DNA of 64,000 nt from the human T2T-CHM13v2.0 reference genome, Homo sapiens. Both the position numbers and the translations under genes were made by a program. The first letter of the stretch is position 1, and the number at the start of each line of letters is the position of its first letter. The notes beneath the pieces were generated by a model. The model saw nothing but the letters and a program-made list of their open reading frames with translations, had not been told where the DNA came from and made no database searches. Shown one piece after another: positions 19,092-61,959 of this stretch. The stretch lies in the NCBI RefSeq assembly GCF_009914755.1, contig NC_060936.1, one strand, 5' to 3'.

Positions 19092-19805
19092 AATTCATTT
19101 GTTAGGGCTGCCATAACAGAATATCACAGATTGGGTGACTTAAACAACACAAATCTATTTTCTCACAGTTTTGGAGGCTGGAAGTCTGAGATCAAGGTAA
19201 CAGCAGTTTCATTTCTTCTGAGACCTTTCTCAGAAGTAAAATACTTACCTTGTAAGATGGTGGTAAGTGCTAAAGAGAGAGAGAAAAAAAGCAGATATCT
19301 TTGGTAGAAACATGTTTCAAATTTGAATGTAAGATGATGTTATCCAAACATGGGTCCCTGTCCAGTGATGAGATCTTGGAGGAAGGCCTCCGACTACGGT
19401 GAACCGTAACACTCCAGATCTACCCATACATACACCCGCTCATCCACTCATCTGTCTACCTATCATCTATCCATCATCGATCCATCCATCTATCCCCTCA
19501 TCCACCCATCTATTCACCCATCCAAGTATTTTACTCCTTGGCTGGAGACAGCCATCTTCTCACTGTGTGCTCCCATGGTTGTCTCTCTGCACTTGAATGT
19601 ATCTGATGTCTCTGTCTGTGTCCTAATCTTCTCTTCTTATAAGGACACCAGTCATTATGAATTAAGGCCCACCCTAATGACCCCAACTTTAACTTAATTT
19701 CTCTTTAAAGACCCTGTCTCCAAACATAGTTACATTCTGAGGTACTGTCGGTTAGGGCTTTTAAATTGGAGTTAGGGGAATAGAGTATATAAATCATCCT
19801 GTAAC
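19092..19805 (-). mobile_element. MLT1 (B/C-like) LTR interrupted by a ~300-bp insertion (19232..19535)
   Basis: ttagggctgccataac...ggaagtctgagatcaagg...gagacctttctc | ccttggctggagacagccatcttct...ataaggacaccagtcat. The LTR reads continuously once the insert is removed. Confidence 0.8.
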
Positions 19806-20149
19806 AATATCTGTTTTGTTCACTTTCGTAGTCCTAGAACTTCACAGAGGGCCAAGTGCACACAGTTGGATAAGTAGGTTTAATTAATGAATGAAGGAAA
19901 GAATAGAAGACGGAAGAATGGATGGGGGAAGGACAGGTGTCATTTGCATGGATGAATTGATGGGTGGATCGATGATGGATAGATGACAGGTAGGCAGATG
20001 GGTGGATGGGTGGGAGTATGTATGGATAAATCTGGAGTGTGATGGTTCACCGTAGTTGGAGGCCTCCCTCCAAGATCTCACCAATGGGCAAGGACCCGTG
20101 CTTGTATAACACCATCTTACATTCAAATTTGAAATATGTTTCTACCAAA
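19300..20149. repeat. Inverted repeat, arms 19300..19490 and 19959..20149, 468-bp spacer
   Basis: Manual ungapped alignment: 22 mismatches in 191 bp (~88%). Inner ends are (TCCA)n/(TGGA)n-like. Confidence 0.95.
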
Positions 20150-20976
20150 ATGGACTAAATCTAAGTATCTAGGCGCAGGACCCTTGATAGTCCTTCCCCA
20201 GAATATTCTAAATTACATGGTTCTCTAATCAACTCTGAAAACTGTGTAAAACACTGGGGAACCTGAGGTCATAACTGCTTGAGAATTTAGTCGTCTTCTG
20301 TCTTTATTTCTTGCAAACAGCCACCTGGTAACTTTCCCTCTATTTGTCTTAGAAGGATTTGATTTCCTCTCATAGACATGTACAAACTGTGTCACATGGA
20401 GACCTTTTCTGATTACTAACAGTGGAGTGGGAAAGGGAGTTGAGCCCCCACAGATTTTGAGAAAGTCCACATCCTTTGGTGTTTCTGTTACAAGGTCTCA
20501 AGTGTGGGAGCTGTTACCTTATAACAGAAGTGGACAGGAGACCAGGTTCTCAGGGCAAAGGTTGCAGATCCAAGGACAAAGGACCCAGGGACCAGCTGAT
20601 TTATTTCTTTGCTTTTATTCACACATTCCCTCTCTTCCCCACCCCCTACCCATGGGTTTACAATGTGGATGGTTGTGGTATTACGTTCGGAAGAGGTTAG
20701 GGAATCTTTCACTGGGGAAATAGCACCTTTTCTTCTTTGTTATCTTAGACATGTTTGGAAACTGACTAGGAGCTCTTATTTCCCTTCTTTCTCCTCTTCC
20801 TCTGTCTCTTCTTTTTCTGTCTCCTCTTCCTTCATCTCCTCCTTCTCCTTCCAACAACTACCATATATTGAGCACTCAGCATAGGCCTGCCTCTATATCA
20901 AGAGTCTTACAAGTATTGTTACATTGAATCCTTAGGACAATCCTTTGAAGTACAACTATGACCTTCCCCACTTCTC

Positions 20977-21303
20977 TTTTGTTGTTGTTGTTGTTGTTGT
21001 TGTTGTTTTGTTTTGTTTTTTGAGATTGAGTCTCGCTCTGTTGCCCAGGCTGGAGTGCAGTGACACAAACTTGGCTCACTGCAACCTCCGCCTCCCAGGT
21101 TCAAGTGATTCTCCTGCCTCAGCCTCCCAAGTAGCTAGGATTACAGGTGTGCACCACCATGCCCAGCTAATGTTTTGTATTCTTAGTAGAGATAGGGTTT
21201 CACCATGTTGGCCAGGCTGGTCTAGAACTCCTGGCCTCAGGTGATCCACCCGCCTCAGCCTCCCAAACTGGTGGGATTACAGGCATGAGACACCGCAACT
21301 GCC
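20977..21303 (-). mobile_element. AluS with (GTT)n tail
   Basis: Full dimer; TSD ccccactt. Confidence 0.96.
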
Positions 21304-21954
21304 CCCACTTTACTTTTAATGAGGCTGAGGTTCTGAAAGGTGAAGTCACTTGCTCAACGTCATATAGCTTGTTACAAGGCAGAAATGGGATTTAAACTCA
21401 GGTTGTCTGATGCTGAGCAAAGCTTATGCCTATAACTGTGACACAAAGACAAATAAATCCAAATGCCTACGTGAGATGCTTAGATGACAAGCAGTGGTGG
21501 GGACTGTGGCCAACTGAAGAATTCCTACCCTGGGTAAAGGAGGCTTCTGCTACCCATCTCCATCTGAATATTGCCAAGTGCGGGGGGTGGGGAGCAGTCT
21601 TCTGATTTTTCACGATTAGCTGGAAATCCAAATCTTTATGCAAAATCTCTTACATAAAGATTTTTTTCTCTTTTAAATGTCAGCGACTAATTAATTTTTT
21701 AATTGTGTAAGTCAAACATGCCTAGAGATGGAATTTAGCTTGAAAACTACCAATCTGTGACCGCTGCTTGAAACAACCACTAGAGTGCAGCTCCCATGGG
21801 CATGGAGCTACAACCCATGACATCCATCCATTGGCCCTAGATTCTGAGAGTCAGATTAATCTTTGTCTTCTTGTATGTTATCTGCTGACTCACAAAGAGC
21901 TATGGCTTCTGTAAAAGGAGAAGACCCAGATACTCTCAAAATAATATCTTGTAG

Positions 21955-22150
21955 AGCTGCATTTTCCGGTATAGTAGCCATCAGTGACATGTGGCTATTT
22001 ATATTTAAATTAATTGAGATTAAATAAAAGATAACATCCCATTTCCTAATCTCACTAGCCACATTTTATGTGTTTTGTGGCTACTATGTCAGGCAGCACA
22101 AATCTAACACATTTTCATCATCACAGAATGCCTTACTGGACAGACAGCCC
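21955..22150. mobile_element. MER3/MER33-like hAT MITE
   Basis: tagtagccatcagtgacatgtggctattt...ctcactagccacattt...cattttcatcatcacagaa. Confidence 0.75.
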
Positions 22151-59384: not shown

Positions 59385-59582
59385 TTTTAATTTTTAAAAT
59401 TTGTTTTCACATAATAACTGTACATATTTGGGGGATACATAGTGGTGTTGTGATACATATAATGTACAGTGATCAGATCAGTGTAATTAACATATCCATC
59501 ATCTTAAACATTTATAATTTCTTTTATTAGAAACATTCAGTATTTTTCTTCTAGCTATTTGAAACTGTAAAACATATTATTG
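59385..59582 (-). mobile_element. L1MA 3' terminal fragment
   Basis: ataataactgtacatatttgggggatacatagtg...gatcagatcagtgtaattaacatatccatcatc. Confidence 0.8.
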
Positions 59583-60156
59583 TCTTAAGCATGATAATGT
59601 AGGGAGAAATAGAGACAGAGGAATGTAAAAAAAAAACAGCGAAGGGAGAGACCCTTAATGAAGCATGGAGTCCCTTGCTTATAGTCACACAGTTATTTTT
59701 AGTTATCCGATCTGCAAAATGGGGATGATTCTTCTATTTCATCAACGTTATCTACAAATACAAGGAATGATCAGAGAAAATCAGACCTTTGCCCCCAGCA
59801 GGGTCTCAAATACCATTTCTTTTAATAGGAGAGAAAGCAGGCTAAACTCTCTGAGGGGAACATTAACTGTGGGGGAATAGTCAACGCTAGTGGAGGGGAG
59901 CCGTGGAAGGGAGCTGCTCATATAATATACATTTTCCAGCTCAAGGATGCAGTCTCTGGCGTGGGCTATTAGGCTTCTTGTCCTTCATGGACCAGCTCTA
60001 GCTAATAGGAAATCTAGTCTGCATTCCATGAACAACCACCAGTGATGGGGGGATTATAGCGAGCCTGCAAATGTGGAAGATAAAATTAATCACAGGGGAA
60101 TTAATACACAAAGTGGAAGAAGCTGCACGTTGGCTAAAAAAAAATTAGGTTGTACT

Positions 60157-60605
60157 TTCATTCATTTATTCAGTCATTCAACATTTTTATTGAACCACTA
60201 CTCAACGTAACAGTGAATGAACACAGGAACTCCCTGTTCCCGTGGAGGAGAAAGACAATAAATGAAGAACCAAATAAATAAATGAGAGCTGGTGGTAATG
60301 CATTCTGTAAAGAACAATAAAGCCAAGGAAAGGAATAGAGGGTGAGGGAATGAGCTGCTTTGTTGGACAGCATGATCCCTGAGTGAAGGGAGAGGTGAGC
60401 TGTGAGGATAAGTGAGAGAAAAGTGTTTGAGGCAGAGGGAACAGCAAGTGCAAAGGCCCTGAGGTAGAAGGATGCTTGGTGTATTTGAGAAATAGCAAGG
60501 AGGTCAGTGTGGCTAGAGCAGAGTGAGTGAATGGGAGAGTGACAGAAGATGATTCCCAGGATGCAAGCAGAAAACAGATCAAGTGGGGCCTTGTAAGCCA
60601 GTTCA
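60157..60605 (-). mobile_element. L2 3' fragment
   Basis: ttcattcatttattcagtcattcaac tail; ggcagagggaacagcaagtgcaaaggccctgagg. Confidence 0.85.
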
Positions 60606-61125
60606 GGAAATTCCTAGGTCCTGGGCTGGGGGCAGGAGGTGGTCCCAGGAGGGTTCTTGCCTTCTCAAGCAGAGTTCCAGATCTGATCTGCTTCTGTTGA
60701 CTCCTCTTTCCTGACTCTGATGCAGCCAGTGATGACTTTGAACAGCAATATCAGAAGATTGGCTGGGTCCCTCCATGTGTTATGGACAAGCATGAAATTT
60801 ACAGTCCCTTTGATTGTGAACAATCACATCAGGAAACTTTAAAGATGCTGTTTAGACTTCCAAATAGCAGTGATAGATTTTGTTCCCACAGTGCAAGGGT
60901 TTGGTCTCTCATATTCATGCATGCAAACCTAGACTATCCCTTGCACCCAGTAGCCCCCTCCACTGCACACTCTTGAAGCTACAGTCTGCTCTTTCTGTCT
61001 CTCTCCCTCTGTGTATCTCTCCCGGCACCTGTCCCCCCACACCTTCCAGCCCCCCACTCCATTTGAAATTTTGCTGAGGGAGCTCCCATATGCTACAGCC
61101 TCTGTGCGGAGCTCTGTGAAATAGA

Positions 61126-61959
61126 ACACTGAATTAAGATGTCATAGAGACAAAGCCAAACCAAATACAGGAACAATGCCGAACCCTAAAACAGTCATTA
61201 AGTAATTCATGTCTACGTGTGTCTGTTCAAAACAAATATTAAGATCCTCTGGACGCAAATCTTTCTCATCCGGAGAATCCTCTGGTTGCTGGATTCCCAA
61301 AGCTTAGATGCCGCTGTCGGACAGCTTTGCTGAGTACAAATACCAACAGATCACTGTTCTCTGGCTTCGTTAAAAGTTAAGCTTAGGCAACTGAGCAGGA
61401 ATTTAGAAGACAGTTGCCACTTCTGCAGAAAGAGAGGTGCCATTTGGGCCTGAAGCGTGCATCTTCATGGTGTGTGTGCACGCTCACTTGTGGTGGGAAT
61501 GTGTGTGCTAAGAGCCTTGTGTTACTATGTGCCTTGCCCTGTGCTGAACACATTTCATCTCTTATCCAGTTCTGTACTTATAATAATTCCAGAAGAGAGG
61601 TGTCTTCAAGACCCTATTTTACAGATGAGAAAACAGAGGCTCTGAGAATAGAAATGATCTGCTCACAGACACATGGCTGGTAAGAGTCAGAATTGGAATG
61701 AGAACCCAGAGCTCTTAACCAACATGTTTATAGGATAAGACACTTTGCAGAGGAGGAAAAAATGGTATCACAGAGGGGAGGTAAGCCCTGGGAATCCAGC
61801 AACCAGGGGAGTCTCTAGATGAGAAACCTTTGCGTCCGGAGGTTCTTACTATTTGTTTTGAACAGACACACGTAGATGTGAATTGCTTAATGACTGTTTC
61901 AGGGTTCGGCATTGTCCTATTTGGTTCGGCTTTGTCTCTATGTCATCTTAATTCAGTGT
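61126..61959. repeat. Inverted repeat, arms 61126..61306 and 61782..61959, 475-bp spacer
   Basis: Manual alignment: 17 substitutions plus 3 gapped nt over ~181 bp (~89%). Not Alu-derived. Confidence 0.95.

What the first reader, a model, noticed from the sequence alone, without database searches (positions are those of the whole stretch)
19300..61959. Two unrelated inverted duplications share geometry and apparent age: possible recurrent hairpin-generating process at the SRRM4 locus
Seen: arms 191 versus ~180 bp, spacers 468 versus 475 bp, identity ~88% versus ~89%. In both cases the derived arm interrupts an older repeat (MLT1; MIR) and was copied from under 500 bp away in reverse orientation. 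The two pairs share no sequence with each other. Inference: a preferred length scale (Okazaki-fragment or nucleosome-sized tracts) of local template switching that creates new long hairpins, active at about the same evolutionary time. This is my best candidate for an undescribed system here, but it rests on only two events.
Basis: inference. Interest (0 to 1): 0.7.

Follow-up and report, generated by a model that had tools for sequence, protein, structure and literature searches.

The report
Two old inverted DNA-repair copy scars
Two short stretches near the human SRRM4 gene each sit as a flipped copy under 500 bases from their source, and they are likely ordinary scars of ancient DNA repair, a kind already catalogued by the hundreds, rather than a new system.

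Summary
Both inverted pairs are real, have two genomic matches each, and each derived arm interrupts an older repeat. The geometric match is looser than reported. Pair A: donor 206 bp, spacer 418-444, inside a 300-bp three-part insertion. Pair B: donor 181 bp, spacer 475, a simple insertion with 4-bp microhomology. These are the features of repair-mediated duplications (Pace et al. 2009; 824 in human, median 147 bp, donor under 5 kb, rate peak 30-42 Mya) and of the polymorphic inverted duplications of Sudmant 2015 and Schloissnig 2025. In 227 of the 824 catalogue rows there is no distance peak at 470 bp (11 of 227 at 400-500; median 1277), and about 10% divergence is the norm for the simian-age class. 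The window also holds a direct 46-bp duplication 3.5 kb apart. Local enrichment is not significant (P 0.05-0.23). Chance is not proven: 0.01 to 8 such look-alike windows are expected genome-wide, depending on the density assumed. Orientation is not tabulated in the catalogue, so a short-range mode special to inverted copies stays open. New members of a known kind.

The parts
19087..19231 (+). 5' part of an LTR-type repeat (MLT1-like, name recalled), host of insertion A
   Evidence: matches all 11 other copies tested, one of them over 31 bp only
19232..19299 (+). Insertion A, piece 1: 68 bp of LINE-type repeat sequence (L2-like, name recalled); donor not found
   Evidence: no donor in window or 40 kb of flanks; genome search gives only an 81% chrX hit; 33-mer with 3 mismatches finds only itself; weak match to a LINE-type profile, E 0.02-0.14
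19300..19525 (+). Insertion A, piece 2: derived arm, reverse copy of 19944-20149, about 20 bp longer than the donor in a CCAT-rich tract
   Evidence: tandem period 20 at 19441-19524
19524..19538 (-). Insertion A, piece 3: reverse copy of the insertion's own first 15 bases (14 of 15), running into the right junction
19532..19806 (+). 3' part of the LTR-type repeat; 3 bases (CTC) stand on both sides of the insertion, no bases lost
19944..20149 (+). Donor of pair A, 206 bp, 410 bp from the insertion point
61126..61306 (+). Donor of pair B, 181 bp, two genomic matches, in SRRM4 intron 1 by the supplied annotation
61741..61785 (+). 5' piece of a SINE-type repeat (MIR-like, name recalled); ends in TAAG shared with the donor's inner end
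61782..61959 (-). Derived arm of pair B, 178 bp including 4 bp of microhomology, no filler
61960..62020 (+). 3' piece of the SINE-type repeat, resuming at profile position 179; about 3-6 bases missing at the junction

Best explanation
Each pair is a short reverse copy inserted into an older repeat under 500 bp from its source, likely left by an independent germline DNA-break repair event in an ancestral simian, and the likeness of the two is likely mostly chance within a known size and age range. Shown: the insertions, their donors, the orientation and the junction sequences. Inferred for B: a free 3' end ending in TAAG paired with the complement 479 bp back on the same molecule, copied 174 bases outward, let go and was joined to the other end with loss of a few bases. 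Inferred for A: the same kind of local copy (206 bp, 410 bp away, 2-bp microhomology at the inner end) plus capture of 68 bp from a second template and a short copy of the insertion's own start that supplied pairing for the final join. Within this reading I put break-end fold-back or strand invasion at about 55% and a switch at a stalled replication fork at about 40%; sequence alone cannot separate them. No function is indicated.
For: Two genomic matches per arm. Host repeats are colinear across both insertions. Microhomology, filler, a second template and no poly(A) match the repair hallmarks in Pace et al. Table 1 and their 20 two-donor cases. Donors of 181 and 206 bp lie in or just above the upper quartile of the catalogue (48 of 227 rows at 160-230 bp); divergence of 9.6-11.5% is the norm for the 'All primates' class (mean 9.96%, 70 of 148 at 9-14%). 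Inverted duplications under 1 kb within 5 kb were 54% of 229 characterised inversions; 277 more have median 284 bp and 1-15 bp microhomology. Yeast breaks give fold-back inversions and insertions of two inverted pieces from one locus. A direct 46-bp duplication 3.5 kb apart lies in the same window and a direct 143-bp one 2.7 kb apart in 200 kb of random DNA.
Against: Spacers of 410-480 bp are short for the catalogue (22 of 227 under 500 bp). Two random catalogue rows are as alike as A and B in only 0.4-1.2% of pairs. At the published minimum density (0.62 per Mb) with a quarter to a half inverted, only 0.01-0.13 such windows are expected genome-wide; 0.7-6 needs about 5 per Mb, which rests on one event in 200 kb (interval 0.13-28 per Mb). 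No spaced unique inverted duplication was found in 200 kb random or 40 kb flanking DNA. Empty sites in outgroups were not seen.
Confidence: 0.78

Rival explanations
1. Inverted local duplications form their own sub-class with a short built-in reach: the donor's inner end lies about 400-500 bp and its outer end about 600-660 bp from the break, set by the length of a resected tail or a lagging-strand gap.
For: Outer-end distances are 616 and 660 bp. In both pairs the clearer microhomology is at the donor's inner end. The pooled distance histogram has a slight rise at 400-600 bp (11 and 15 rows, then 9 and 8). The catalogue does not list orientation, so a mode could be hidden.
Against: Two events only. 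The rise is small and I did not test it for significance; 4 of 227 rows have both length 160-230 and distance 350-550. Sudmant 2015 gives only 'within 5 kbp'.
Confidence: 0.13
2. The 5' region of SRRM4 was a local hot spot for breaks or fork stalls, giving several templated insertions in one period.
For: Three two-copy local duplications in 64 kb against one in 200 kb random.
Against: P 0.13-0.23 for duplications of 100 bp or more and 0.05-0.10 for inverted ones, before allowing for the window having been picked for this. None in 40 kb of flanks. Pace et al. saw no clustering and no link to gene density. The third event is direct, short and 3.5 kb apart.
Confidence: 0.06
3. The hairpins are kept by selection as RNA structures, pair B in SRRM4 intron 1 and pair A in an intron of a predicted lncRNA.
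For: Predicted folds of -409 and -432 kcal/mol, z -23.7 and -19.4; pair B lies in the transcribed intron by the supplied annotation.
Against: The folds follow trivially from any 88% inverted repeat. Arm divergence equals the class average. No Rfam match in the window. An inverted repeat pair at 20995-22526 gives a longer duplex (300 bp, 84%). Selection would not explain equal geometry.
Confidence: 0.02
4. Insertion A is a small transposon with 15-bp terminal inverted repeats, or both are retrotransposed copies.
For: The ends of insertion A are reverse complements at 14 of 15 bases, and 3 bases are repeated at the site.
Against: No family: two matches per arm, no close match for the 68-bp piece. 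No poly(A), no long target duplication, no L1-endonuclease-like hexamer (motifs recalled) at 4 of 4 junctions. The left 15 bases belong to the LINE-like piece.
Confidence: 0.01

Closest known systems
Repair-mediated duplications (Pace, Sen, Batzer, Feschotte 2009, PMC2671141)
   Same: Insertion of 50 bp or more splitting a repeat; single donor within 5 kb; microhomology, filler, small deletion; two-donor chimeras; size near 150-200 bp; about 10% divergence.
   Different: Both donors are closer than usual (410, 479 bp; sampled median 1277). Orientation is not tabulated there. Neither locus was found in Table S1 (older-assembly position recalled, not verified).
Polymorphic inverted duplications (Sudmant 2015 PMC4617611; Schloissnig 2025 PMC12350158)
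   Same: Reverse copy under 1 kb, inserted within 2-5 kb of the source, 1-15 bp microhomology, no retrotransposition marks.
   Different: Those are young and segregating (median 284 bp); these are about 10% diverged and likely fixed. A is a composite.
Four-point template switch, type 3-2-1-4 / 1-4-3-2 (Loytynoja and Goldman 2017 PMC5453318; Walker 2021 PMC7954356)
   Same: Pair B has this order of switch points and the same product, one new inverted repeat.
   Different: Reported tracts are far shorter (median 12, maximum 128 bp); A needs more than two switches.
Fold-back and inverted templated insertions at yeast breaks (Yu 2024, PMC11724301)
   Same: Microhomology-primed fold-back copy joined to the second end; inserts holding two inverted pieces of one locus, like pieces 1 and 3 of A.
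   Different: Mostly under 14 bp, up to about 150 bp, primed right beside the break.
Small inverted triplications (Lei 2026, PMC13334657)
   Different: Three copies with a 30-bp spacer; here two copies 418-475 bp apart.

Membership tests
Repair-mediated duplication (Pace 2009) | Insertion of at least 50 bp splitting a repeat whose halves are colinear within 30 bp | tested here: met
   A: halves abut within 0-6 bases in 6 of 11 copies. B: profile ends near 172-175 and resumes at 179; the upstream piece is weak alone.
Repair-mediated duplication (Pace 2009) | Inserted sequence has one other genomic location | tested here: met
   2 matches each; lower bounds; for A only 19300-19420 was searched.
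Repair-mediated duplication (Pace 2009) | Donor more than 50 bp and less than 5 kb away | tested here: met
   410 and 479 bp
Repair-mediated duplication (Pace 2009) | Repair marks (microhomology, filler, small deletion) and no poly(A) tail | tested here: met
   B: TAAG microhomology, 3-6 bases lost. A: 2-bp microhomology, 68-bp second piece, 3-bp repeat at the site
Repair-mediated duplication (Pace 2009) | Pipeline filter: donor covers at least 80% of the insertion | tested here: inconclusive
   B passes. A is 206-226 of 300 bp (69-75%), but Table S1 itself holds rows at 349 of 510 and 205 of 427, so this is not treated as defining.
Repair-mediated duplication (Pace 2009) | Empty orthologous site in an outgroup | not testable with these tools
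   No other primate genome is held.
Inverted duplication SV class (Sudmant 2015; SVAN) | At least 75% of the insert aligns in reverse within 2 kb; under 1 kb long | tested here: met
   B 100%. A 226 of 300 (75%), borderline
Inverted duplication SV class (Sudmant 2015; SVAN) | Segregates among humans | not testable with these tools
   One assembly only; 10% divergence makes fixation likely (inference).
Short-range four-point template switch | Switch order giving one inverted repeat | tested here: met
   Pair B
Short-range four-point template switch | Tract within the reported range (to 128 bp) | tested here: not met
   174-226 bp against median 12, maximum 128
Small inverted triplication (Lei 2026) | DUP/inverted/DUP with a spacer near 30 bp | tested here: not met
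   Two copies only, spacers 418-475
Small DNA transposon with terminal inverted repeats | Dispersed copies sharing the ends | tested here: not met

The most novel reading that the evidence does not exclude
Inverted repair copies have their own ruler: the copy starts 400-500 bp from the break and stops about 600-660 bp from it, recording the length of single-stranded DNA exposed at ancestral germline breaks or forks. Sorting the catalogued duplications by orientation would then show a short-range inverted mode beside the known 1.2-kb mode, a fossil measure of resection or lagging-strand gap length in primates.
Probability: 0.13. Interest if true: 0.5.

Novelty: new member of a known kind. Interest (0 to 1): 0.17.

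Why it matters
As it stands: two clean, apparently unlisted examples of a described mutational class, one with a readable three-template junction. They would matter more if orientation turned out to split the class by distance, because that would make an open question (break repair or fork switch as the source of small inverted duplications) testable from genome sequence alone.

Tried and rejected
Genome-wide inverted-repeat scan: not possible, only 200 kb random and 40 kb flanking DNA were scanned. The scan found 20 of 20 implanted 180-bp copies at 12% divergence and flagged 17 of 20 as unique. Donor of the 68-bp piece: not found. The idea that it came from the LINE-like copy just left of the LTR, since lost, rests on an E 5 match and is unproven. 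Pairwise test of the SINE junction against single copies was too weak, so a profile was used. L043 3396-3449/5123-5175 (54 bp inverted) was dropped as a common repeat, 40 matches. In the scans, pairs whose arms hit other copies better were dropped as repeat pairs, and arms under 40-50 bp were not listed. Rfam: 0 matches. Per-event size and distance tables of Sudmant 2015 and Schloissnig 2025 were not in the readable supplements; unreadable files may hold them. Orientation of catalogue pairs could not be determined. Thomas et al. 2004 was not held. Zhou et al. and PMC4576756 gave nothing on distances.
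Full report
Observation. A self-comparison of the window finds, besides pairs of common repeats, two inverted pairs: A at 19300-19504/19949-20149 (86.8%, E 7e-66) and B at 61126-61306/61782-61959 (88.4%, E 2e-60). Each arm has two matches in the genome (lower bounds; for A only the non-repetitive 121 bases were searched). The pairs share no sequence. They are far beyond chance as sequence matches.

Anatomy of A. The left arm sits in a 300-bp insertion (19232-19531) in an LTR-type repeat (MLT1-like; the name is recalled). 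Searched separately, the two halves abut within 0-6 bases in 6 of 11 other copies; the other 5 gave partial or shifted alignments. Three bases (CTC) stand on both sides and none are lost. The insertion has three pieces. First, 68 bp of LINE-like sequence with no donor in the window or 40 kb of flanks; the genome gives only an 81% chrX hit. Second, the reverse copy of 19944-20149, which reads through to 19525 and is about 20 bp longer than the donor in a CCAT-rich tract. Third, a reverse copy of the insertion's own first 15 bases (14 of 15), overlapping piece 2 by AA and running into the right junction. The spacer is therefore 418-444 bp, not 468, and the donor is 206 bp, 410 bp from the insertion point.

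Anatomy of B. The right arm (178 bp) splits a SINE-type repeat (MIR-like; name recalled). With a profile built from 65 held copies, the downstream flank matches positions 179-244 starting at 61960 (E 9e-6). The upstream flank is weak alone (E 1.6), but beats 400 of 400 shuffles when anchored at the junction and ends near position 172-175. The inner junction shares TAAG with the donor; the outer junction has no clear microhomology and no filler. The spacer is 475 bp.

Age. Mismatches are 22 of 191 (A) and 17 of 178 (B), intervals 7.4-16.9% and 5.7-14.9%, Fisher P 0.61. That is 19-62 My depending on the clock assumed. Similar age is allowed, not shown.

Mechanism. Shown: insertion, donor, orientation and junction bases. 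Inferred: in B a free 3' end paired by 4 bases with the complement 479 bp back, copied outward 174 bases, was displaced and joined to the second end. In A a second template and a short self-copy were added, the last supplying pairing for the join. A second donor and filler favour break repair (about 55%); a fork switch (about 40%) is what Schloissnig et al. suggest for the polymorphic class. There is no poly(A), no long target duplication and no L1-endonuclease-like hexamer (recalled motifs) at 4 of 4 junctions.

What is known. Pace et al. 2009 (PMC2671141; read: main text parts 1-6 of 8, Table S1 parts 2, 4 and 8 of 15 plus searches, Figure S1 part 1 of 24) searched for insertions that split repeats. 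They found 824 with a donor under 5 kb, mean 162 bp, median 147 bp, a distance peak near 1.2 kb, 20 two-donor chimeras, microhomology 2-9 nt, filler 1-68 nt, 0.62 per Mb of repeat DNA as a minimum, a rate peak at 30-42 Mya, no clustering and no link to gene density. One example is stated to be inverted; orientation is otherwise not given. Neither locus appears under the expected older-assembly prefixes (offset recalled, not verified). Sudmant 2015 (passages; supplement searched, tables not readable): 54% of 229 characterised inversions are inverted duplications under 1 kb within 5 kb. Schloissnig 2025 (passages; table file parts 1 and 92): 277 events, median 284 bp, 1-15 bp microhomology. Loytynoja and Goldman 2017 and Walker 2021 (passages): same switch order as B, much shorter tracts. 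Yu 2024 (abstract, discussion): fold-back and paired inverted inserts in yeast. Lei 2026 (abstract): inverted triplications at Okazaki scale. Thomas 2004 is known here only through Pace's text. A search for SRRM4 with inverted repeat, intron 1 and hairpin listed 10 of 146 papers, none naming SRRM4. I saw no orientation-by-distance analysis in the listings; the library lacks most subscription papers.

Is the shared geometry special? Distances form a broad plateau, median 1277 bp; 11 of 227 lie at 400-500 bp and 22 of 227 under 500 bp, with a slight rise at 400-600 that I did not test. 48 of 227 are 160-230 bp long; 70 of 148 old rows diverge by 9-14%. Expected look-alike windows genome-wide range from 0.01-0.13 (0.62 per Mb, a quarter to a half inverted) to 0.7-6 (5 per Mb), and to 8 in the loosest setting tried. 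So chance is plausible but not established, and the tolerances were set after seeing the pair.

Background measured here. In 20 random 10-kb stretches: 0 spaced unique inverted duplications and 1 direct one (143 bp, 93%, 2.7 kb apart). In 40 kb of flanks: 0. The control found 20 of 20 implanted copies and flagged 17 as unique. Window against background: P 0.13-0.23 for events of 100 bp or more, 0.05-0.10 for inverted only, uncorrected for selection of the window. The window also holds a direct two-copy duplication of 46 bp, 3.5 kb apart, which does not fit a single geometry.

Function. By the supplied annotation B lies in SRRM4 intron 1 and A in an intron of some transcripts of a predicted lncRNA. 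Both would fold as long RNA duplexes, as any such repeat does; a longer inverted repeat pair lies at 20995-22526. There is no Rfam match, and arm divergence is average for the class. Nothing points to selection.

Verdict. Two real, apparently unlisted members of a described class. Confidence 0.78 that they are independent repair scars with largely coincidental likeness; 0.13 that inverted copies have their own short-range mode; 0.06 a local hot spot. Interest 0.17.

Noticed in passing
window 24344-24389 and 27933-27978: Third two-copy local duplication, direct, 93% over 46 bp (about 65 bp at lower identity), 3.5 kb apart, two genomic matches; which copy is derived was not worked out.
   Followed up: partly
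window 24959-25007 and 25413-25465: Direct 50-bp pair at 81% on either side of the masked repeat 25012-25403; possibly an unusually long target duplication.
   Followed up: no
L028 1708-1850 and 4533-4676 (chr2, 236.75 Mb): Direct 143-bp duplication, 93%, 2.7 kb apart, partner far better than any other hit; likely another repair-mediated duplication.
   Followed up: partly
window 18850-19906: Nested history around pair A: LINE-like 3' pieces on both sides of the LTR-type repeat, which is itself split by the insertion; the 68-bp piece is the next segment of the same family in the opposite orientation (weak on the left side).
   Followed up: partly
L025 4427-4565; L035 3068-3305: Self-complementary stretches of 140-240 bp in the random sample, probably small DNA-transposon relics.
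   Followed up: no
window 37538-38226 and 50202-50842: Direct match of about 75% over 600 bp in two pieces, overlapping masked repeats; likely two copies of one long repeat family.
   Followed up: no
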